Virus record (IMG/VR): IMGVR_UViG_3300032335_000855
Location: 1-31,388 of that record
Source of the DNA: a virus
Taxonomy: Duplodnaviria > Caudoviricetes
DNA: 31,388 nucleotides
Strand: one strand, 5' to 3'
The notes beneath the pieces were generated by a model. It did no database searches. It was not told where the DNA came from and worked only from the letters and a program-made list of their open reading frames with translations. The position numbers and the translations under genes are program-made. Of this stretch, positions 720 to 29,190 are shown piece by piece (within the stretch, counting starts at the first letter, position 1; every line of letters starts with the position of its first letter).

Positions 720-1118
720 CTAGCCTCTACCTACTCGGCAAATTCTGCACTCACAGTTGAGGCCATCGCGTTTCTTACGATCGATACCAAAAGCCTCTAA
801 CGGTTTCGGCTGGTTACAGCGTGAGCATTCTTTAGTAACGGCATCCGTTATTACGCTCTCGATGTGATCCAGGTTGATGCAGTCCGAGTATCCACAGAGT
901 CTAATACCGGGCCGGTACAACTCGCCCAGCCTAGTGAGTGGCCGGTTATCGTCATCCAGCTCTAACTGGTGCGGCTCACAAATACCGTAATCGGTTGTGA
1001 GTCTAGTTTGCTTACCAGCCCGACACTCTTTACAGCCCCACATGTCGCGGCCACGCTTAGCCCTCTGTTGCGCCGTATCATCTTTCATTGCGCAACCGCA
1101 CCGCGCACACTCAGCCAT
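720..1118 (-). CDS. Cys-rich zinc-binding protein, paralogue of 6173..6442
   Basis: Several CxxC pairs plus RLCGYSDCINLDHI segment. Confidence 0.7.
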   Translation of the reverse strand: MAECARCGCAMKDDTAQQRAKRGRDMWGCKECRAGKQTRLTTDYGICEPHQLELDDDNRPLTRLGELYRPGIRLCGYSDCINLDHIESVITDAVTKECSRCNQPKPLEAFGIDRKKRDGLNCECRICRVGRG

Positions 1119-1635
1119 TTACTCTCACGAATCTCATCTTTGTATTTTTTACGCTGGCCGAATCTAAGTCAAGTATGGATGTTGTTTGACCGCGCTTGAA
1201 CCCTGCATGGATTACTTGGCCGTTGCCAATGTAGATGCTGGCGTGAAAGAAAGTGTTAGTGCCTTTGTAACCGAATAGCACCAGGTCGCCAATCGCCGGC
1301 GATGAAACCTTTACACCTGAGCGCGCTTGCTTATTCGCTGAGTGAGGCAACTCAACACCGATCTGCTCATAAGCCCAACGCGTTAGGCCCGAGCAATCCC
1401 AGCCTCGAGGTGTCGAACCGCTAAACACATACCAGGTTTTGCCGATGCGTTTCTTGAGCTGCTTGACTACCTTAGCCATGCGAAACTCTTGAGCATCTTG
1501 CATAACGATGGTCATGAAATCAGGGTTTGTTTTTACGATGGCCTGTGGCGCTGGTGTCTGCGCGGCCGTTGCCGATGATGTGCATCCGGCGAGAATAGCC
1601 CCCAAAGTTGTGAGAGCGATTAGTTGTTTCTTCAT
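1111..1635 (-). CDS. NlpC/P60 (C40) cell-wall peptidase, predicted lipoprotein
   Basis: Signal peptide with LAG|C lipobox; WDCSGLT catalytic Cys, GDLVLF, HASIY..G..IHA. Confidence 0.9.
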   Translation of the reverse strand: MKKQLIALTTLGAILAGCTSSATAAQTPAPQAIVKTNPDFMTIVMQDAQEFRMAKVVKQLKKRIGKTWYVFSGSTPRGWDCSGLTRWAYEQIGVELPHSANKQARSGVKVSSPAIGDLVLFGYKGTNTFFHASIYIGNGQVIHAGFKRGQTTSILDLDSASVKNTKMRFVRVNG

Positions 1636-1695
1636 TTAGCCACTTACCTTTCTTGAGGTTAGTTGGGTGGTTTATTGTCGAACGATATTCAGTTT

Positions 1696-1777
1696 TAGTG
1701 GATCATCAGGGAATCGAACCCTGCTCTGACGGATGCGCCTGAGCGCCTTGACCGGCATCGAAACCAGATTATGACCC
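1696..1777 (-). ncRNA. minimal tmRNA-like RNA (tRNA-like domain only)
   Basis: GGGUCAU/AUGAUCC acceptor stem with G3.U70, discriminator A, stemless D-loop AAUCUGGUUUCGA, T-arm CAGGG-UUCGAUU-CCCUG, no anticodon loop or tag ORF. Confidence 0.75.
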
Positions 1778-2946
1778 TAGAGCTTGAGAACCGCACCTTG
1801 ATAGGGAATGCCTTTAGACAATTCTAGGCATGTGATGCCCGGTGCTGAATCCTCGCCCGAGATGCGCCTGAACCAGCCTGAACCGTTGTCGCTGGTCGAA
1901 GTCTGCACCCAGTAGCGTGAACCGCCGTTGTGACTTGCACCAGCCTCGATAACTCTGAGATGGTGAAAATGTGCGGTGAGTAGCAACGATGCCGATGCGA
2001 TCGTTTGATTGCCGAAAGTGTTTTGCCGCCACCAGGTAAGAGCATTCTCGGGCCTCGAGTACTGATGCCCATGAGCAATGCCAACCAGGTGATAGCCATC
2101 ACCGAAAGCATCAAACACTAGCGATTCTTCATCAGGGTTTGGAATCAAGAAAGTGATCGGCAACCCAACCTCTACGGCTAGGCGGCGCACCTGCTGCAGA
2201 ATCACAATGCCCCAGTCATCCAAGCCAGGCTTACCGATCTGCTGGCGATTCACGCGCCATTGGCAATGATTCGAGCCGATGCTGGCATAAGTCACCGGCG
2301 CATACTTTGTGGCCATCTTGAGAAAATCCCAGATAAGAGCTGCAGCCAAATCAACCTGCTGCATAACGCTCAGGTCATTGCCCTGCAACTGATTCATGCT
2401 GCTCGCGTTATCGATGCCCTCGATTATGTCGCCCAAGTCCAGCGCGTAGATGTGCTGATACTTACCGGCTTTTAGTTGAGCCTCGATGCGATCGTAAGAT
2501 TCCAGGATGCGCTGCACCAGGCTTTCGGTGTTGCCACGATGATCTACTTTGCCCACCTGAAAATCTGCCAGGCAGACAACAAATACTTTGTCCGACTGAG
2601 TTTGCTTAGTTGCTGGCTTTCTTGTTTTCTTTGCGTTGGCATACAGCGTTGGCAGATCAGGCACAGACCCGATGCGCTTGCGAAAGTGGAAACGCCACGA
2701 AGATAACCATTGAGGCTCAAGCGGAAACGGTCGCGCCACCTGCCAGCGGCTAGTGCGAGGCGTGCCAACAATCTCATACTCATCAGGTGAAAAGCCTTGC
2801 TCTTTTAGAAACTCATCAAAGTTAGGCAGCTCATCATCGGGGATGGCTGGCAGCGTTGCCGTACCGTTAGTGCCATCAAACTCGAGGGCCGGTCGCCAAT
2901 CTTTCGGCGCATCAATCTTCGGTGCTGGCTGCAGATCATCAAGCAT
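1777..2946 (-). CDS. calcineurin-like metallophosphoesterase (Mre11/SbcD-like fold)
   Basis: ADFQVG, GDIIEG, SNH, HGH, AHFHH metal-binding motifs. Confidence 0.8.
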   Translation of the reverse strand: MLDDLQPAPKIDAPKDWRPALEFDGTNGTATLPAIPDDELPNFDEFLKEQGFSPDEYEIVGTPRTSRWQVARPFPLEPQWLSSWRFHFRKRIGSVPDLPTLYANAKKTRKPATKQTQSDKVFVVCLADFQVGKVDHRGNTESLVQRILESYDRIEAQLKAGKYQHIYALDLGDIIEGIDNASSMNQLQGNDLSVMQQVDLAAALIWDFLKMATKYAPVTYASIGSNHCQWRVNRQQIGKPGLDDWGIVILQQVRRLAVEVGLPITFLIPNPDEESLVFDAFGDGYHLVGIAHGHQYSRPENALTWWRQNTFGNQTIASASLLLTAHFHHLRVIEAGASHNGGSRYWVQTSTSDNGSGWFRRISGEDSAPGITCLELSKGIPYQGAVLKL

Positions 2947-3178: not shown

Positions 3179-3385
3179 TTACCCTTTCAACGGCTCTAAG
3201 TCTGCCAGAGTTTTCGATAGAACCACAACCGTTGGCATCGGGTGAGTTTGGCGCGACTCATGCTTGAGAACCTGAGCCAAATCCTGCCGAATGGCCTCAA
3301 AGTCATCAGACCACACCAGGTTGTTATCTTTTACCAGCTCATAGGCTCGAGTGACCATCTCACGATCTGAGCGAATCCAGGTCAT
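3179..3385 (-). CDS. hypothetical protein
   Basis: Fits the tightly packed operon. Confidence 0.65.
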   Translation of the reverse strand: MTWIRSDREMVTRAYELVKDNNLVWSDDFEAIRQDLAQVLKHESRQTHPMPTVVVLSKTLADLEPLKG

Positions 3386-5177: not shown

Positions 5178-5627
5178 TTACAAACGCCACAATTCGATGG
5201 TTGCGCCTGGCTCGGGCTTAGTTGTCGGGCCACACCAGACCTTTTCAGCCTGAATCTTCACAATCAGGGCATCATCGGCAATCAGGCCACCAATCGTGAG
5301 AGCATCGCCCACCGCGCGAATGTAATGATCCAGGTCGGGTTTGCCACCTGGATAAACTTTCCACTTTGGCTGCTTAGGTCGCTCGAGAAAGAAAGTCATC
5401 CGCACCTTGACCGGCTCAACAAACTTCGACACATCCTCAGTATCGGCAAACAGTTTCTTGACCGCCAGAATAATGTCTGCGCGCCACGCTGGTAGATGCT
5501 TGCTCGCCTCAACCATTACAGCTCGCTTACCAATCACAAAAGCGTTTTTAGACCCTTGCGGTGCTGGTCGGCCATCCACAAACAACAACGCATGTGAACG
5601 GCCCGACTCAACAACCTCAACCATCAT
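5178..5627 (-). CDS. rusA: RusA-like Holliday junction resolvase
   Basis: PAPQGSK, KPDLDHY..AVGDAL....DDALIV acidic motifs. Confidence 0.85.
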   Translation of the reverse strand: MMVEVVESGRSHALLFVDGRPAPQGSKNAFVIGKRAVMVEASKHLPAWRADIILAVKKLFADTEDVSKFVEPVKVRMTFFLERPKQPKWKVYPGGKPDLDHYIRAVGDALTIGGLIADDALIVKIQAEKVWCGPTTKPEPGATIELWRL

Positions 5628-5785
5628 CGAGCCTTAGCCAGAAAACCTGCAGCGGTGAAAATGTTTAGCGCCAACAACAAAAACGCCAAGAACCTCACCG
5701 GGATAGGCAACGCCTCGTTATCGACCGACAACCACATGAAAATCGCGTTGGCGATGAAGAACAGTAAAACAGTTATCTTGACCAT
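5624..5785 (-). CDS. small membrane protein (53 aa, MVKITVLLFFIANAIF...)
   Basis: Hand-translated; two hydrophobic helices; overlaps both neighbours' start/stop. Confidence 0.6.
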   Translation of the reverse strand: MVKITVLLFFIANAIFMWLSVDNEALPIPVRFLAFLLLALNIFTAAGFLAKAR

Positions 5786-19059: not shown

Positions 19060-19344
19060 ATGACTACAGCAACACTCACCGCCATCGCGAACCTAAAAGC
19101 TCACCTGGCACAAATCGAAAGCACACGCGCCACAACCAAATGCTGCATCTGGTGCGGTTACGGCGATCACTACACCGATGAGGTATTTACCAAAGATGGC
19201 GCATCAGTCGCCCATTGCTCAAAGGGTTGCGAGCATGATGCAACCGGGTACACCAGCGCCGATACTCACGAACCTGATGGCGACTACCGCCATGTGCGCG
19301 GCGAGTGCGAACTATTTGGCTGCAGCAACACCGAGTTGGCATAA
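19060..19344 (+). CDS. Cys/His-rich hypothetical protein
   Basis: CCIWC, CSKGC, CELFGC; clear promoter and RBS. Confidence 0.7.
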   Translation: MTTATLTAIANLKAHLAQIESTRATTKCCIWCGYGDHYTDEVFTKDGASVAHCSKGCEHDATGYTSADTHEPDGDYRHVRGECELFGCSNTELA

Positions 19345-19346
19345 TC

Positions 19347-19892
19347 ATGGGCATGATGAAATACATCGAAACCACGCTAGGCCAACCGCACATCTACAAC
19401 TACGGCGAATCGCAGGGTTTCTTTCTATACAACCCGGTCAAACCATTCAAAGATGATCATGGCCTAGTAGTCGCACAAACCATCTACCTCGAAGATGATG
19501 GCGACCTAACCATAAACAACTACTACTCGCGCGCATGGGCCTACTGGAACTTTATCGATGGCACACACTTTGAACTTACAGAGGCCGATGAGCTGATGCG
19601 CCTCGAGGCCAGCATGATGCCCGACGGATTAGTAGACGGCAAAATTAGCCAGGCTGAGCGCGTACTCATGTGGCTCGATCATGGGCTGATACCGATCGAG
19701 TCAGAGTTTTGGCAACGCCTAGTTGTATCACTCGCATACAACGCAATTACCGATTCAGAGTTTCTATCTGATCTGGCTGAAAACACCTGGTACGGTGTCG
19801 AGGCAGTCCAGGCGATGCTAGACAAAGCTGCCGGCGAGGTACTAAAACACCCCAACTTCAAACTCGCAGGTTTCGAGCAACTTACCCCCTAA
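19347..19892 (+). CDS. acidic hypothetical protein
   Basis: About 181 aa, follows previous stop, ends before terminator. Confidence 0.7.
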   Translation: MGMMKYIETTLGQPHIYNYGESQGFFLYNPVKPFKDDHGLVVAQTIYLEDDGDLTINNYYSRAWAYWNFIDGTHFELTEADELMRLEASMMPDGLVDGKISQAERVLMWLDHGLIPIESEFWQRLVVSLAYNAITDSEFLSDLAENTWYGVEAVQAMLDKAAGEVLKHPNFKLAGFEQLTP

Positions 19893-21840: not shown

Positions 21841-22260
21841 TTACCGCTTAGATAGTCGATGCTTGATGGCGGTAGTCGAGATGCCATCGGTATACGGAAT
21901 GTAAATCAAACCAATGCCGCGCTCATCCAACCAATCCTGATCGAAACCCATCTGGTAGTAGTAATCACGCCTAGCCCAGTCGCTGCCGATAATAATGTAG
22001 TCGGGTTTTACTTGCTCGATGGCAATGCGCGAATCTGCGCCACCAGCGTTAGGCACAACCTGGCTAACCCACTTACAACCCAACAGCACATCGCGACGCT
22101 CAGCGTAAGTCATCACCGGCGCTTTACCTTTGTACTCGACAATGAACTCATCCGTGTTTAGGGCCACAACCACCTCACCCAACTGAGCTGCGCGCCTAAG
22201 AAACGCCACATGCCCGGCATGAAATAGGTCAAAAGTGCCGCCTGTATAAATCAATCCCAT
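21841..22260 (-). CDS. cytidylyltransferase (TagD/glycerol-3-phosphate CT-like)
   Basis: GTFDLFHAGH, GSDW, YTDGISTT motifs. Confidence 0.9.
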   Translation of the reverse strand: MGLIYTGGTFDLFHAGHVAFLRRAAQLGEVVVALNTDEFIVEYKGKAPVMTYAERRDVLLGCKWVSQVVPNAGGADSRIAIEQVKPDYIIIGSDWARRDYYYQMGFDQDWLDERGIGLIYIPYTDGISTTAIKHRLSKR

Positions 22261-22898
22261 CGGTTTGCTCTCCTAGTTTGTAATGACCACAGAGATGCCT
22301 CTATACGGCCCTCAGCGGCTCTCTGAGCGTATAAACGCCCATTGTTGCTATAACTTACCGAATTGACGGCCTGAAAGCCGCTATGCAGCGTAGAACTGTT
22401 ATCGTGACCCATCTTGCAACCAATGCTTTTCTTAGGCACACCAGCCAAATCAACGCGACGCTCGAGATCATTATCATCAAAGTAAAGAGGGTAAAAATCC
22501 TCGCTATAAAGCCCGACTCGCTCAACCATGCCCTCACCGAAAACCACGCCCGACCATGCCGGGTAAATGTCGAGAAAATTGAGCGCCTGAGTATCGACCT
22601 GCTCGGGTATTAGCTGCATCTGGCCCGGCGGAAAATAGGCATCATCATTCACTAAAACCCAGTACGGCGCGTACGGTGTCGCTTTCACAATCAGATTCCA
22701 AGCGCCAACCAAACCCAAACCAAAGGGCACTTCAATGTGCCAAAGATTCTGCACCAAATCAGGTTTCTTAGGTTGCCAGGCTTTTGTGCCTGAATTGTTT
22801 ACGATCACCAAATGCTCAACCGGGTAATCGATGCTGGCCAGCAACCTCTCAGCCAAATCAAAACGCTTGAGAGTGCAAAAGCCAAGAACCGGAATCAT
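22251..22898 (-). CDS. GT2-family (GT-A) glycosyltransferase
   Basis: VIVNN, AWNLI, VNDDA, YFDDNDL; start MIPVLG by ATGA overlap. Confidence 0.75.
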   Translation of the reverse strand: MIPVLGFCTLKRFDLAERLLASIDYPVEHLVIVNNSGTKAWQPKKPDLVQNLWHIEVPFGLGLVGAWNLIVKATPYAPYWVLVNDDAYFPPGQMQLIPEQVDTQALNFLDIYPAWSGVVFGEGMVERVGLYSEDFYPLYFDDNDLERRVDLAGVPKKSIGCKMGHDNSSTLHSGFQAVNSVSYSNNGRLYAQRAAEGRIEASLWSLQTRRANRWD

Positions 22899-24076
22899 TT
22901 TAGAATTTGGGCCAACGCCGGCAACCAATACTCTTGCCACACATGCTCAGCACCATAACCCTTAGCAAACTCAATCGCCTTTTCAGACTTACCTCGAGGT
23001 CGTTCATACGCCTCATTCAAAGCTCTAACGGTTTGCGGAATGTTAGGCACGCTAAACCATGACCGCTGAGGCTCATCCCATAAGGGCTGGCACTCAACCA
23101 ACCAACCATCGCCGCACAACTCAGTACTCGCGCAAATGTCGCTTAATATCGTTGGCACTCCACATGCGGCGGCCTCGATAGACCCGACACCAAAACCCTC
23201 GCCATAGCTGATACCTAAATAAACATCCATCGCCGTATAAAACGCTGCCAGTTGCTCTTGCGAATAGCCATAACGGTAAGCGACCTGATCGCAGAAAATC
23301 ACCTGGTCTTTAGTCAAACCGCACGCAGTCAAAATGTGGTCAAGTTTCCAACCGCCGAAACTACCAAACATGTCGGTATGCAAATACAGCACCGCATTGG
23401 GCTTATCTTTCGCAAACAACGCAAAAGCTAGAAACGCCTCAGCGACCGCTTTACGATGAATCGCACCGCTGGCCTTATTAGCAAAATTCATCCCAACCAA
23501 GAAAGTGTCTGCATCGATGCCCATGTACTCGCGCGTAGGCACACCATCGACTTCATAAGTTGGCTGAAACACCGGCTCGACAGCATGAGGAATGTACAAA
23601 CTCTCAACGCCACGATTCTTGAGCTGCTCTTGACCCCAACGGCTCATCGCGATCGGTGTAACATTCGGCCGCTTGCACCATTCCAAAACCAACGGCGGTA
23701 TCGGGTTGTGATCGATAGGCACCCAACTAGCAATGTTTAGATCGGCATACTTATCGCCACGCATAATCCAAACATCATAAAGAGTGAAAAGCGCGTTAGG
23801 TTGCTTGCCCTTTTCTTTCTCTACATTGGCAACATGATGATTATGATTCAGCGGTGTAACATCCTGCGAATACGGCTCAGCGCCCCTAGCATACTCAGGC
23901 ACCTCACCGTACTTAGATTCCCAAGTGCCATTCACACCCTCGCGCCCATAGTTGCTCAAAACCGCAACATCGAGGCCATCGCGGATCATGCGATTCAAAA
24001 CCTGATTCGATTGCACGCCATACCCGGTTGGCGCAGTCGGTGAATTAGAAAACCAAGAAACCGTACCCTTTAGCAT
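22895..24076 (-). CDS. GT4-family (GT-B) glycosyltransferase
   Basis: TGYG, IPHAV, EGFGVGSIEAAACGVP (ExxxxxxxE). Confidence 0.85.
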   Translation of the reverse strand: MLKGTVSWFSNSPTAPTGYGVQSNQVLNRMIRDGLDVAVLSNYGREGVNGTWESKYGEVPEYARGAEPYSQDVTPLNHNHHVANVEKEKGKQPNALFTLYDVWIMRGDKYADLNIASWVPIDHNPIPPLVLEWCKRPNVTPIAMSRWGQEQLKNRGVESLYIPHAVEPVFQPTYEVDGVPTREYMGIDADTFLVGMNFANKASGAIHRKAVAEAFLAFALFAKDKPNAVLYLHTDMFGSFGGWKLDHILTACGLTKDQVIFCDQVAYRYGYSQEQLAAFYTAMDVYLGISYGEGFGVGSIEAAACGVPTILSDICASTELCGDGWLVECQPLWDEPQRSWFSVPNIPQTVRALNEAYERPRGKSEKAIEFAKGYGAEHVWQEYWLPALAQILK

Positions 24077-25569: not shown

Positions 25570-25728
25570 TTAGCGAGTTTCTTTAGCCTCAGTAATCCGA
25601 ACTTCTTTAGCCGGTACTGAAGAATCTTTTAGCTCTTTGATTAGATCGGCAACCGGGCCAATAACAGGCGCACCAGCAACCTCATTGATTACCTTTACAG
25701 CGATCTCAATTTCTTCTTTAGTTGGCAT
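25570..25728 (-). CDS. small head-module protein (52 aa, MPTKEEIEIAVK...KETR)
   Basis: Hand-translated; TAATG coupling to protease stop. Confidence 0.7.
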   Translation of the reverse strand: MPTKEEIEIAVKVINEVAGAPVIGPVADLIKELKDSSVPAKEVRITEAKETR

Positions 25729-27605
25729 TACATTTCCTTTAGTAGTAGGTCGAGTTTCTTTTTCTTCAGCGCGAGAATGTCGCCCTGAACTTCTTGCACT
25801 TCTTCGGTCTTAGTTAGTTTTGCCACAACATCGGTAATGAGGGTCGCGTGAGATTCTTCTAACTCCTCGCCCGACTCCAGGCGCATGAGTGCATCAGCCA
25901 ACTGATCGGCATCGATGCCAGGTGCAGATGAGCGAACCGAGATCGTGCCGCTGGTAGCGGTATACGCTGGCCAAGAAACAACTGATGTTTCAAAAAGTCT
26001 GACCGCCTCAAGAGTGCGAACCTCGCCCTGCCACGAATCCTTGATAACAGAGAAACCAAAGCTCATAGAGTCAATAGTTTTAGAGCGAATCAGCTCAGCC
26101 ACATCGCGGCCTCGAGTGGTATTGGCTAGGGTAGCCTCAACGCGCAAACCAATCTCATCTTCAGTAAGTTTCAGAGTGCCACCACGAACCGATGCCAACG
26201 GCTCACCAGCATCGTGATTCCACAACAACTTGACCTCATTGCGCGACTGCAACGAACGCTTAAACGCACCAGGCGCGATTCGCTCGATGAACGGCAACGG
26301 CTCAGAGTCCGAATTGAAAACGGCGGCATAACCCGTAAACGCCATGCCATCAGCGGTTTCGCGAATCTCAAAATTAGTCGCGTGAATGCGCTGCTCTTGC
26401 TTGCTAGTCGAACGGCCCTCAGAGTCGCCGCCCTCGAGTTGATTCTTGATGCGCCAAGCAACATCAACCCATTTAGAACGCGTATTAGCAGTCATAGTTT
26501 CTCTTTCTTGCTCTGCCTCAATTCTAGCAACCACCGATTCTGCGAAAGCCATCGTGCGCTCAGCAGCTCTCTTAGTTGGGCCTGAACCCCAAAGTAAATG
26601 TGCGACAACACCGGCAGACGGATAGTTATCTGCACCAGGTTGAGCATCCGGCGCATCGAGGTCATCCATGTGCCTAGCGATCCAGGCAGCGATACGAATC
26701 CACTTATCATCGGTAACGCGGCCCTCAGCCATGTCGCGCGCCTCACGAATAGTGCGCTCAACCAAACCATCGCCACCCTGACCATCGGCATAGTACTCGA
26801 GGCCACGCCTAGCAGCCGCACGCATATAAGCCGGTGCATCCTGATTTATAGCCCGATCTTCAGGCACATCTGGCACATCCGCCGGCGCGATAGCGGTGAT
26901 GCCCAAACCTGAGTAAGCCTCACGAATGTCTGCACTATCATCCACCGCAACCATCACATTGTAAGTTTTCAACAAATCTTCAGCGGTAAGTTTCTTGAAC
27001 TCAGTCGAATCGGTATCGGCATCGGGTTTCATAATCAACTGGTCATAATCAATGTCCAAGTTTTCAAGCTCAGAAACCGTAGCCGTACGCTCAGACTCGA
27101 GGCGAGCCGTCACAATGATTATCTCGGTATCGTCAAAACTCTCGAGATAGGCATAAACCTTTTCATTACGATCGCCATCGAAAGTGATTAGCGTGCCATC
27201 AATGTCCGCGAGAACCGCCTGAGAGGTTGGATCAGAATCATCCATAGGCTCAGCCGATGGCAAATCAGCAATCTTAGTCAAATCGGCTAGAGGCACAACC
27301 GCAACCAAAAGCGACTCAACATAGACGCCATCTTCACCCTCATAAATTTTGACCTCAGCCTGATCGCCATCGATGCGGTAAATCTCGCCATAATAAGTTT
27401 CGCCACCGCGAACCCAAGTCACATAATCGCCAATCAACAGCGCGCGCTCACCCTCAAACGGCTCATCAGTCGCGATAGACAACGCAACAGCCTGATCGAT
27501 AGCCGACTGCTTACCAGCGTGGCAACCAAAAATCTCGCCGGCCGAATCAATAACAGCCCAGCCGCCAGCGCAACCCTCGCGGTCTTTAGCAATGAAGTAT
27601 GGCAT
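25728..27605 (-). CDS. HK97-type prohead protease fused to N-terminal domains including a HAD phosphatase
   Basis: C-terminal GYAAVFN, NHD, MSFGF, ETSVVSWPAY; HAD DIDGT/VTAR/K/DD at aa 134-223. Confidence 0.9.
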   Translation of the reverse strand: MPYFIAKDREGCAGGWAVIDSAGEIFGCHAGKQSAIDQAVALSIATDEPFEGERALLIGDYVTWVRGGETYYGEIYRIDGDQAEVKIYEGEDGVYVESLLVAVVPLADLTKIADLPSAEPMDDSDPTSQAVLADIDGTLITFDGDRNEKVYAYLESFDDTEIIIVTARLESERTATVSELENLDIDYDQLIMKPDADTDSTEFKKLTAEDLLKTYNVMVAVDDSADIREAYSGLGITAIAPADVPDVPEDRAINQDAPAYMRAAARRGLEYYADGQGGDGLVERTIREARDMAEGRVTDDKWIRIAAWIARHMDDLDAPDAQPGADNYPSAGVVAHLLWGSGPTKRAAERTMAFAESVVARIEAEQERETMTANTRSKWVDVAWRIKNQLEGGDSEGRSTSKQEQRIHATNFEIRETADGMAFTGYAAVFNSDSEPLPFIERIAPGAFKRSLQSRNEVKLLWNHDAGEPLASVRGGTLKLTEDEIGLRVEATLANTTRGRDVAELIRSKTIDSMSFGFSVIKDSWQGEVRTLEAVRLFETSVVSWPAYTATSGTISVRSSAPGIDADQLADALMRLESGEELEESHATLITDVVAKLTKTEEVQEVQGDILALKKKKLDLLLKEM

Positions 27606-27862: not shown

Positions 27863-29190
27863 TAGTAAACCGCCGTTGGGTTTTCAGGGTCGATCATCGA
27901 TACCGGTTGCAACTGAGTCGATGGCACACCGGTGTGCGGAATCTCAGGCAGATTCAGGGCCGAAAGAGTTTCTTCAGGGCTGAAACCAACCTGGATCAGC
28001 ATCTGCGCCATCTTCACGCGCTTTTCATCCTCAATAACGGCGGTCTGCGCCAAGTCAATGTTGGCTAGTGGCACTCTAAACTGATCGCCATCGGCCACCG
28101 GCGACAAATCCTCGAGGCGGCGCACATCGTTTACCGACATGAAACCAGCCTGAGTACCGATACTGTATGAGGTCATACGCGACTGTAGATCGCCACGCAG
28201 CAACGCATTGAAGTTGAACTTGATGAAAGCCGATGGATTCGGTAGCAGCTTGCTATAACTCCACTCAATCTTCTCGAGGATGGGCCTAAGCGTGTGACTT
28301 ATGAACTGTAAGTTGTTATTCTCGACGCTGCTAAAACTTGATGAGCCTGGCACATCCATCATGTGCAACGGAATGTTGAACGCGCGAGCAATTTCCTCAA
28401 CCGCGAAACGGCGCGAGTCCAAGAACTGAGCCTGATCGTTAGGCACGCTAGTCGGGTTGTATTTTGCGCCACCCGACAACACACCAGTTTTGTGAGCTTT
28501 ACGCCAACCGCGATGGCGCGAGTCAAAGCCATCTACTAAATCGCGAGCCTGTTGCTGGGTGAGCGCACCAGGAAACTCAATCACGCCCTGAGTAGTCGCA
28601 CCCTGACCAAAGAATCTGGCCGCGTACGCTTGCAACGCAGTAGCAACGCCCAGCGCATCCTTGAGTTTGCTTACGCGCGAGATGCCAACCAAAGAGCCAG
28701 GCTCAGCCAAGTCAATGATGTGAATAATCTCATCGCTAGTAAGAGCCTTGCCCTCATTGCCGATAACAAAAGTTTTGCGGCCGATGCTATTGCGCTTTAC
28801 CTCAACGGTATTAGGGTCTAGCACAACCAGGTTTACAACCTCGCCGTTGTTGTCGCGAAATACGCGAGTGAATGAGTTGCCATGCACTAGCAACGATGTG
28901 ACTACCGCGCCGTAATGTGCCTGGCGAGTTGTATCAACATCGGGCTGATCTACCCAAGCCGGTCTAGGTCGCAACGGTCGGCGCTCACCATCCGAGCGAA
29001 TAAACGCATCACATGGCAGCGTAGAGATGGTGTCGCTGATAAGCGAAACCGCTGAAAAGAAAGCCACGATCTCGAAAGCGTTTTGGCCATTGATAGCAAC
29101 ACCAGCATTTGACTCAATGCCAGCCTCGATGCCCGATCCCCATACGGTTTGGAAACTTACAGCTCGCTGCTCGAAAAGATTATTTAGCAT
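27862..29190 (-). CDS. HK97-family portal protein
   Basis: LLVHGNSF, QFLDSR...EIARAFNIP, MSVNDVRRLEDL. Confidence 0.95.
   Translation of the reverse strand: MLNNLFEQRAVSFQTVWGSGIEAGIESNAGVAINGQNAFEIVAFFSAVSLISDTISTLPCDAFIRSDGERRPLRPRPAWVDQPDVDTTRQAHYGAVVTSLLVHGNSFTRVFRDNNGEVVNLVVLDPNTVEVKRNSIGRKTFVIGNEGKALTSDEIIHIIDLAEPGSLVGISRVSKLKDALGVATALQAYAARFFGQGATTQGVIEFPGALTQQQARDLVDGFDSRHRGWRKAHKTGVLSGGAKYNPTSVPNDQAQFLDSRRFAVEEIARAFNIPLHMMDVPGSSSFSSVENNNLQFISHTLRPILEKIEWSYSKLLPNPSAFIKFNFNALLRGDLQSRMTSYSIGTQAGFMSVNDVRRLEDLSPVADGDQFRVPLANIDLAQTAVIEDEKRVKMAQMLIQVGFSPEETLSALNLPEIPHTGVPSTQLQPVSMIDPENPTAVY

What the first reader, a model, noticed from the sequence alone, without database searches (positions are those of the whole stretch)
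1696..1777. Phage-encoded 'mini-tmRNA': tRNA-like domain with no mRNA-like domain
Seen: the minus strand reads GGGUCAU AAUCUGGUUUCGA UGCCGG UCAAG GCGC-UCAG-GCGC AU CCGUCA GAG CAGGG-UUCGAUU-CCCUG AUGAUCC A CUA. It has a 7-bp acceptor stem with G3.U70 and A73, a 13-nt stemless D-loop, a helix-2a-like stem closed by a tiny hairpin, a 3-nt linker and a canonical T-arm. G1 is the last base of the phosphoesterase stop codon. Known: G3.U70 is the AlaRS identity element, and this architecture defines the SmpB-binding TLD of tmRNA (E. coli D-loop AUUCUGGAUUCGA, 11/13 identical from memory). Normal tmRNAs carry about 250 more nt with pseudoknots and a tag ORF, all missing here. Inference: an alanylatable SmpB/EF-Tu ligand that titrates SmpB, rescues stalled ribosomes without a degradation tag, or decoys tRNA/tmRNA-cleaving defences. 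The 3' end is ACUA, so CCA would have to be added after trimming.
Basis: partly seen in the sequence, partly recalled or inferred. Interest (0 to 1): 0.9.

Follow-up and report, generated by a model that had tools for sequence, protein, structure and literature searches.

The report
Phage tag-less mini-tmRNA (DS6A type)
This aquatic phage carries a conserved 82-base gene that copies only the tRNA-like, alanine-accepting end of the bacterial ribosome-rescue RNA tmRNA; the form is already known from mycobacteriophage DS6A, recurs unannotated in many phages, and likely competes with the host's rescue-and-tag system.

Summary
Window 1777-1696 (minus) is a tmRNA tRNA-like domain (TLD) with no message: 7-bp acceptor with G3·U70 and A73, stemless D-loop (11/13 identical to E. 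coli ssrA), capped helix 2a, T-arm. It is not a new kind. Phage DS6A has a published TLD-only tmRNA with the same architecture, and a covariance model built without either sequence scores DS6A 63 bits and the window 58 bits. What I did not find in print is the family's breadth. A motif scan gave 102 distinct viral sequences from 18/64 of IMG/VR; all pair 7/7 in the acceptor with G3·U70, with compensatory changes. Unannotated copies sit in cultured phages phiPsal1 and BRock and in Poribacteria chromosomes. 17 of 19 close relatives keep it behind the same phosphoesterase gene. Most likely it is matured and alanylated by host enzymes, binds host SmpB and suppresses SsrA tagging; expression, charging and binding are untested. 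G1 overlaps the upstream stop codon, so RNase P maturation would leave a nonstop mRNA, but only 4 of 17 relatives share the overlap. This scan reported the same RNA kind on at least seven other genomes.

The parts
1696..1777 (-). TLD-only (CDS-less) tmRNA gene; predicted mature RNA runs from G1 (1777) to the discriminator A (1699), with CCA predicted to be completed after trimming
   Evidence: (57.7 bits with a model built without it)
1771..1777 (-). Acceptor stem, 5' strand; G3 at 1775; G1 is the last base of the upstream TAG
   Evidence: pairs 7/7 with 1700-1706
1758..1770 (-). Stemless 13-nt D-loop; U17 (1761), C18 (1760), G19 (1759) match the SmpB-contacting bases of E. coli tmRNA; position 15 is U, not A
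   Evidence: contacts from PMC8363625
1727..1757 (-). Helix 2a (1757-1752 with 1732-1727, one C·U mismatch), A-rich internal loop and 4-bp capping hairpin (1746-1735); stands where the message and pseudoknots of tmRNA would be
   Evidence: 6 of 6 helix-2a pairs change on both sides among 13 local sequences
1724..1726 (-). 3-nt linker; the middle A (1725) is the equivalent of E. coli A334
   Evidence: middle A in 74 of 74 homologues from scans that did not require it
1707..1723 (-). T-arm, 5 bp with a 7-nt loop
1696..1706 (-). Acceptor 3' strand (U70 at 1702), discriminator A73 (1699) and non-CCA end
1672..1694 (-). Conserved 23-nt 3' trailer of unknown role (processing signal, or promoter/operator of the next gene)
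   Evidence: nearly invariant in 13 of 13 aligned local sequences while the RNA itself diverges
1777..2946 (-). Upstream ORF, 389 aa, Mre11/SbcD-like metallophosphoesterase (phrog_284); its stop codon overlaps G1
   Evidence: (E 2e-53)
1111..1635 (-). Downstream ORF, 174 aa, NlpC/P60 peptidase with a hydrophobic N-terminus; likely co-transcribed
   Evidence: PF00877, E 3e-21

Best explanation
This is a selected phage gene for a tmRNA cut down to its tRNA-like domain, which is likely matured and alanylated by host enzymes, likely binds host SmpB and EF-Tu, and would thereby compete with full-length tmRNA and lower SsrA tagging during infection. Shown: the sequence, the fold by covariation, the invariant alanine-identity bases and conserved SmpB-contact bases, the absence of any tag reading frame, the absence of a phage smpB or full tmRNA, and membership in the DS6A-type family. 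Inferred: co-transcription with the phosphoesterase gene; 5' cut by RNase P, 3' trimming and CCA completion; charging by AlaRS; entry of the Ala-TLD/SmpB/EF-Tu complex into stalled ribosomes, where it can add alanine but supplies no tag and no stop codon. The inferred benefit is protection of phage proteins from tag-directed proteolysis, or disabling of a host quality-control step that limits the phage.
For: Covariation. Among 102 distinct viral hits chosen by a sequence motif with no pairing requirement, the three free T-stem pairs are 100% paired (47% when shuffled, maximum 55%), helix 2a 95% (49%), acceptor pairs 4-7 100% (60%). 16 of 21 pairs change on both sides in a 34-sequence MAFFT alignment; 0 of 500 shuffles reach this, and slid controls give 39-53% pairing. 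In 13 local sequences 17 of 22 pairs change on both sides. Identity bases not in the search pattern: G3·U70 in 73 of 74, A73 in 74 of 74, linker A in 74 of 74. G3·U70 and A73 are the AlaRS determinants (PMC3968760 passages); U17, C18, G19 and A334 contact SmpB (PMC8363625 passages) and all four are kept here. No smpB and no full tmRNA in this 100%-complete record; no SmpB among 138 neighbouring ORFs of homologues. 9 of 10 bacterial genomes holding a mini copy also hold a full tmRNA, so it is an addition, not a replacement. Precedent: a DS6A-like TLD-only RNA strongly inhibits tmRNA, perhaps by titrating SmpB (Mao et al. 2009 as cited in PMC4131195 and PMC11915505); TLD plus SmpB makes polyalanine without template in vitro (Shimizu and Ueda 2006 as cited in PMC3929946).
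Against: No experimental evidence of a transcript, charging or SmpB binding for this copy. The cited inhibition was seen in E. coli and did not need charging (PMC4131195), so it does not explain why G3·U70 is invariant and may be an over-expression effect. Blocking ribosome rescue could hurt a phage that needs free ribosomes. The window copy departs from the family majority: C·U mismatch in helix 2a, linker GAG (4 of 101, against GAC in 72 of 101), no RF00023 hit, and a predicted minimum-energy fold without the T-arm. Two of 19 close relatives carry deviant copies lacking the D-loop motif, and none of 41 more distant relatives has one within 2 kb of the gene, so it is dispensable at this position.
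Confidence: 0.5

Rival explanations
1. Tag-free rescue: the charged RNA with SmpB takes over stalled nascent chains, adds one or more alanines, and the ribosome is then freed by drop-off or another release factor, so the phage gains ribosomes without losing protein (as proposed for CDS-less mitochondrial tmRNA).
For: Invariant G3·U70 and A73 imply that charging matters, which a pure sponge does not need (PMC4131195). Template-free polyalanine synthesis by TLD-SmpB in vitro (as cited in PMC3929946). CDS-less tmRNAs persist in mitochondria and plastids (PMC11915505). A chromosomal copy is kept beside a full tmRNA among housekeeping genes in Poribacteria. 17 of 70 viral copies have tRNA genes within the fetched flank.
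Against: The RNA has no stop codon to trigger release; the one cited in vivo test reports inhibition, not rescue.
Confidence: 0.22
2. Decoy or spare for host defences that cut or bind tmRNA or tRNA ends.
For: It mimics the tmRNA TLD closely. CoCoNuT systems carry SmpB-like domains predicted to engage tmRNA (PMC11090510 passages). Patchy presence among relatives and changing position are typical of counter-defence genes (inference).
Against: No defence system is shown to target the TLD; the CoCoNuT link is a prediction. A decoy cannot replace a cut tmRNA's message. The copies keep near-canonical sequence rather than escaping variants.
Confidence: 0.12
3. Cis-acting processing signal: a tRNA-like fold that has RNase P and 3' nucleases cut the polycistronic phage mRNA, setting the levels of the flanking genes (here also removing the upstream stop codon).
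For: No promoter-like site near the window copy. It abuts the upstream stop in this subclade. It lies next to prohead protease or capsid genes in 9 viral loci and in phiPsal1.
Against: Invariant G3·U70, D-loop motif and linker A are not needed for RNase P cleavage (own knowledge). 24 of 98 homologues have a TANNNT hexamer 6-16 nt upstream of G1 (5-15 in control windows), suggesting stand-alone transcription. Neighbours vary widely. The stop overlap is in only 4 of 17 relatives.
Confidence: 0.1
4. Non-functional relic: a decayed tRNA, or an attachment-site remnant of a host ssrA.
For: ARAGORN and Rfam miss this copy; ssrA is a common integration site (PMC11915505 abstract).
Against: Both ends are present and covary; there is no D-stem and no 7-nt anticodon loop; real tRNAs score at most 28 bits on the model against 57-84 for family members; no integrase among 52 window ORFs scanned.
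Confidence: 0.03

Closest known systems
TLD-only tmRNA of mycobacteriophage DS6A (tmRNA Website tmID 11587; Phage__Mycobacterium.9; JN698994.1 about 28478-28560)
   Same: Same order and size (83 vs 82 nt): G3·U70 acceptor, stemless D-loop, helix 2a with A-rich loop and small capping hairpin, 3-nt linker with middle A, T-arm, ACUA end, directly behind a phage ORF. Both score on model R1 (63.1 and 57.7 bits).
   Different: Different stem sequences. The window has the canonical D-loop motif (DS6A's deviates), a 4-bp cap instead of the family's commonest 3-bp cap, a C·U mismatch in helix 2a, and G1 inside the upstream stop codon (10-nt gap in DS6A). Likely host is an aquatic Microbacteriaceae, inferred from phiPsal1.
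Standard bacterial tmRNA (ssrA, Rfam RF00023)
   Same: TLD with AlaRS determinants and SmpB-contact bases; D-loop 11/13 identical to E. coli; 13 of 20 motif-matched loci tested pass the RF00023 gathering score.
   Different: About 280 nt missing: no pseudoknots, resume codon, tag frame or stop codon. This copy itself does not hit RF00023.
CDS-less organellar tmRNAs (mitochondrial RF02544; about 65-nt Mallomonadaceae plastid forms)
   Same: No tag reading frame; TLD retained (PMC11915505 passages).
   Different: Organellar forms are the compartment's only tmRNA and are mostly permuted; this one is one-piece, phage-borne and would coexist with a full host tmRNA.
Full-length phage tmRNAs (mycobacteriophages Bxz1 group, Streptomyces phages, Melnitz two-piece)
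   Same: Phage-encoded tmRNA-derived RNAs that rely on host SmpB.
   Different: Those carry a tag peptide frame; this one has none.

Membership tests
DS6A-type TLD-only (standard, no CDS) tmRNA | One-piece gene in standard order with 5' and 3' ends forming a 7-bp acceptor stem | tested here: met
   7/7 pairs; 102 of 102 homologues pair 7/7, best of 8 registers tried
DS6A-type TLD-only (standard, no CDS) tmRNA | G3·U70 wobble and A73 discriminator | tested here: met
   present at 1775/1702 and 1699; 73 of 74 and 74 of 74 in scans that did not require them
DS6A-type TLD-only (standard, no CDS) tmRNA | Stemless D-loop and linker with the SmpB-contact bases U17, C18, G19, A334 | tested here: met
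   all four present; position 15 is U, not A
DS6A-type TLD-only (standard, no CDS) tmRNA | Helix 2 closed by a short cap; no tag frame or pseudoknots | tested here: met
   31 nt between D-loop and linker, folded as stem, loop and hairpin
DS6A-type TLD-only (standard, no CDS) tmRNA | Recognised together with DS6A by one structural model | tested here: met
   model R1, built without either: DS6A 63.1 bits, window 57.7 bits, tRNAs at most 27.6
DS6A-type TLD-only (standard, no CDS) tmRNA | Expressed as a discrete RNA, alanylated, binds SmpB, inhibits host tagging | not testable with these tools
   needs bench work; precedent known only as cited in PMC4131195 and PMC11915505
Standard tmRNA (RF00023) | mRNA-like domain with tag frame and stop codon, with pseudoknots | tested here: not met
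   absent; total length 82 nt against 356-387 for host tmRNAs
Standard tmRNA (RF00023) | Scores above the RF00023 gathering threshold | tested here: not met
   no match for this copy
Two-piece (permuted) tmRNA | T-arm and CCA end precede the 5' end in the gene; a coding piece follows | tested here: not met
   order is standard and no second piece was found in the record
Canonical tRNA (RF00005) | D-stem and 5-bp anticodon stem with 7-nt loop | tested here: not met
   no D-stem, 4-nt cap loop; ARAGORN 0 genes, no RF00005 match
Prophage attachment-site fragment of ssrA | Only one end of the gene, next to an integrase | tested here: not met
   both ends present and covarying; no integrase among 52 ORFs scanned

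The most novel reading that the evidence does not exclude
Hundreds of phages, and at least one bacterial lineage (Poribacteria), use a message-less tmRNA as an active, template-free alanine-tailing and tag-free rescue RNA that hijacks host SmpB, a fourth route through stalled 70S ribosomes. In this subclade RNase P maturation also clips the phosphoesterase stop codon, so the RNA creates a nonstop mRNA and then governs whether its product is tagged and destroyed.
Probability: 0.18. Interest if true: 0.85.

Novelty: new member of a known kind. Interest (0 to 1): 0.52.

Why it matters
The 2025 tmRNA database lists only 9 'standard, no CDS' sequences among 97,179 and names one phage example (PMC11915505). 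One strict motif scan suggests about 440 stretches in IMG/VR, a lower bound because DS6A, BRock and phiPsal1 copies deviate from the motif. A curiosity thus becomes a widespread, selected phage RNA aimed at the main bacterial ribosome-rescue pathway, largely missed by ARAGORN. It also makes an old question testable: what a tmRNA without a message does (inhibit, or rescue without tagging), now with harmless cultured systems (Pontimonas phage phiPsal1, Streptomyces phage BRock).

Tried and rejected
ARAGORN and Rfam on the window: nothing but a weak mascRNA match (23.2 bits, threshold 42.5), rejected as generic T-arm likeness. blastn of the window copy against 50,697 cultured phage records: only short T-arm matches to tRNAs; homologues in cultured phages came only from another family member as query and from the model. 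Single-sequence folding was uninformative. Expression: no RNA holder listed; two runs laid as contigs, probably DNA, cover parts of the NlpC gene and a 35-nt T-arm match from other organisms, so nothing follows about expression. A conserved 'nonstop mRNA' mechanism is rejected as a family trait: among 17 close relatives the gap to the stop is -1 in 4, 0 in 1, 5 in 9 and 37 in 3; among 60 wider viral loci it is -1 in 1 (the window's own sequence) and 0 in 2. No conserved partner gene was found among 138 neighbouring ORFs. Rows dropped: in the two loose scans 110 of 184 distinct matches (147 of 239) failed the pairing filter, many being tRNA-Ser genes; in the genome scan 19 of 72 distinct matches had fewer than 7 acceptor pairs, among them 10 Synechococcus/Cyanobium-type matches that I read as two-piece tmRNA acceptor pieces (own knowledge; 31-36 bits for three tested). 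L474 (93% identity, only residues 1-183 matched) had no model hit and was left out of the 19. Mao et al. 2009 could not be read. The supplement search of PMC11915505 found none of three terms in the one file held, so I cannot say which family members the database already lists.

Full report
Observation. Against E. coli ssrA from NC_000913.3 the D-loop matches at 11 of 13 positions; U17, C18, G19 and the A334 equivalent are kept, and A15 is U. Those are the bases that contact SmpB in cryo-EM structures (PMC8363625, passages). G3·U70 and A73 are the AlaRS determinants (PMC3968760, passages). Standard tools miss this copy: ARAGORN finds no gene, Rfam gives only a weak mascRNA match, RF00023 has no match in the record, and single-sequence folding is not significant (z -1.71; the TLD fold is 3.6 kcal/mol above the minimum).

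The phage. The window is the whole virus record, 100% complete by CheckV, with HK97-type head genes, tail genes, DnaB, RusA and a RecE-like nuclease. No integrase appeared among 52 ORFs scanned, and there is no smpB and no full tmRNA. The closest cultured match of the upstream gene is Pontimonas phage phiPsal1 (46% identity, 31 kb, similar gene order), so the host is probably an aquatic Microbacteriaceae (inference). The RNA lies between an Mre11-like metallophosphoesterase (2946-1777) and an NlpC/P60 gene (1635-1111), on the same strand, with no sigma-70-like promoter nearby. It is therefore likely cut out of a longer transcript.

Homologues and selection. Two loose motif scans of IMG/VR (D-loop and T-loop only) gave 184 distinct matches, of which 74 passed a pairing filter. 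In these 74, bases not in the pattern are nearly invariant: G3·U70 in 73, A73 in 74, linker A in 74. A stricter motif with no pairing requirement gave 119 loci from 18 of 64 parts of the collection, about 440 in all by the tool's estimate; roughly 5 chance matches are expected per 1e11 bases. All 102 distinct sequences, one of them identical to the window's, pair 7/7 in the acceptor (best of 8 registers) with G3·U70. The three free T-stem pairs are 100% paired against 47% in shuffles, and helix 2a is 95% against 49%. In a 34-sequence MAFFT alignment 16 of 21 pairs change on both sides, 0 of 500 shuffles reach that, and slid controls fall to 39-53% pairing; these counts do not correct for relatedness. 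The arm ranges from 14 to 41 nt and never reaches message size. CCA is encoded in only 30 of 101, and 3 of 3 actinobacterial full tmRNAs examined also lack it, so the ACUA end is unremarkable. RF00023 recognises 13 of 20 motif-matched loci above threshold; ARAGORN called a tmRNA over only 1 of 70.

The local clade. Of 19 IMG/VR relatives with a full phosphoesterase match at 71% identity or more, 17 carry an intact copy right behind the gene (57-65 bits); L459 and L466 carry deviant tRNA-like copies without the D-loop motif. None of 41 relatives at 61% or less has one within 2 kb. Among 13 aligned local sequences 17 of 22 pairs change on both sides and G3·U70 never varies. The window's C·U mismatch is a standard pair in its nearest relatives. 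phiPsal1 itself carries an unannotated copy at another position, upstream of the capsid gene (5569-5650, 76.9 bits). Streptomyces phage BRock has one in its tRNA cluster (83.6 bits), and five further Streptomyces phages match a family member over 79% or more of its length. Neighbours vary: prohead protease or capsid in 9 viral loci, a DnaB-like helicase in 8, tRNA genes within the flank in 17 of 70. The RNA thus behaves as a mobile, self-contained unit.

Cellular genomes. The same motif gave 75 loci in GTDB genomes; 53 of 72 distinct matches pair 7/7. Some have phage genes next to them. 22 loci are in Candidatus Poribacteria; in 5 of 6 examined the RNA sits by a Na/Ca exchanger gene and other housekeeping genes, and 5 of 5 such genomes also hold a full-length tmRNA elsewhere. 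Four of five other genomes tested also have both (the fifth is a 1.7-Mb bin). The short form is an addition to the host tmRNA, not a replacement.

Comparison with what is known. PMC4131195 (part 2 of 5 of the text and passages) lists mycobacteriophage DS6A as 'TLD only' and says a similar molecule, chargeable or not, strongly inhibits tmRNA, perhaps by titrating SmpB. PMC11915505 (passages) counts 9 'standard, no CDS' sequences and says the DS6A form inhibits endogenous tmRNA in E. coli. Both cite Mao et al. 2009, which I could not read. I located the DS6A RNA: it has the same architecture and the same ACUA end, and a model built from 34 other sequences scores it 63.1 bits and the window 57.7, against at most 27.6 for tRNAs. 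The window RNA is therefore a member of that kind. It fails membership of standard tmRNA (no message), two-piece tmRNA (standard order) and tRNA (no D-stem or anticodon loop). Nine literature searches listed no paper describing a broad phage family; subscription journals are largely missing from the library, and the database's own sequence list was not seen. Passages of PMC9004378 and PMC12656738 report phage tmRNA genes but no message-less form. Earlier notes of this scan report the same kind on at least seven other genomes; I had reached the DS6A reading before that look-up.

Mechanism. Inferred steps: co-transcription, RNase P cut at G1, 3' trimming and CCA completion, alanylation, binding of host SmpB and EF-Tu. 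The complex could enter stalled ribosomes, since TLD plus SmpB makes polyalanine without template in vitro (Shimizu and Ueda 2006 as cited in PMC3929946, passages), but it offers neither tag nor stop codon. The best reading (0.5) is a charged competitor that lowers SsrA tagging during infection. Tag-free rescue (0.22) is favoured by the invariance of G3·U70, which a pure sponge does not need, and by the Poribacteria copy. A defence decoy (0.12) rests on predictions such as the SmpB-like domains of CoCoNuT systems (PMC11090510, passages). A cis-acting processing signal (0.1) is weakened by the invariant identity bases and by a promoter-like hexamer just upstream in 24 of 98 homologues, against 5-15 in control windows. 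A relic (0.03) is nearly excluded.

The stop-codon overlap. G1 is the last base of the phosphoesterase TAG, and the C-terminus is conserved in relatives, so this is the real stop. An RNase P cut at G1 would leave that mRNA without a complete stop codon, making it a substrate of the very pathway the RNA likely disturbs. The overlap is shared by only 4 of 17 relatives (gaps 0, 5 and 37 in the rest), so genome compaction is the simpler cause; it remains a cheap test.

Verdict. A real, selected RNA gene; a new member of a kind known from one phage. The interest lies in the unreported breadth, the cultured harmless test systems and the open function, not in this copy alone. Interest 0.52.

Noticed in passing
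L364, L366, L368, L373, L380, L381, L383, L384, L389, L395, L396, L398, L401, L403, L405, L408, L411, L413, L425, L431, L435, L437 (Candidatus Poribacteria): A chromosomal TLD-only RNA of about 86 nt, mostly beside a Na/Ca exchanger gene among housekeeping genes, in genomes that also have a full tmRNA (5 of 5 tested); a cellular, apparently vertically kept copy.
   Followed up: partly
L516 5569-5650 (Pontimonas phage phiPsal1, MG835450.1); L454 4991-5071 (Streptomyces phage BRock, KX925554.1): Unannotated family members in cultured phages of harmless hosts; blastn also points to LuckySocke, GiJojo, pSt2308, Shaeky and Alone3.
   Followed up: partly
L466 3177-3240 and L459 about 3188-3256: Deviant tRNA-like copies at the same position in close relatives: no D-loop motif and an unusual shared T-loop; L466 keeps G3·U70 and A73, L459 does not. 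Possibly a second, SmpB-independent form rather than decay.
   Followed up: partly
window 1672-1694, minus strand: A 23-nt trailer right after the RNA is almost invariant in 13 of 13 aligned relatives although the RNA stems differ; no consensus promoter or terminator called. Unexplained.
   Followed up: partly
L464, L465, L470, L471 (and phiPsal1 at neighbouring T-stem positions): The usually fixed G53-C61 pair of the T-stem is replaced by A-U in one subclade, with pairing kept.
   Followed up: no
L388 2110-3642 and L406 2304-3842: Two cellular copies lie directly behind a DUF2828/DUF7788 (VWA-containing) gene, which I recall as Ro60/TROVE-like; possible link to RNA-repair modules.
   Followed up: no
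L402 3823-3902 (Achromobacter bin): A short form that looks like a host ssrA with an internal deletion, between housekeeping genes; could show how such RNAs arise, or be a misassembly.
   Followed up: no
window 25728-27605, 21841-24076, 19060-19892: The prohead protease ORF carries an extra HAD/PNKP-like phosphatase domain; two glycosyltransferases and a cytidylyltransferase sit between capsid and connector genes; possible plus-strand ORFs without family matches interrupt the tail operon.
   Followed up: no
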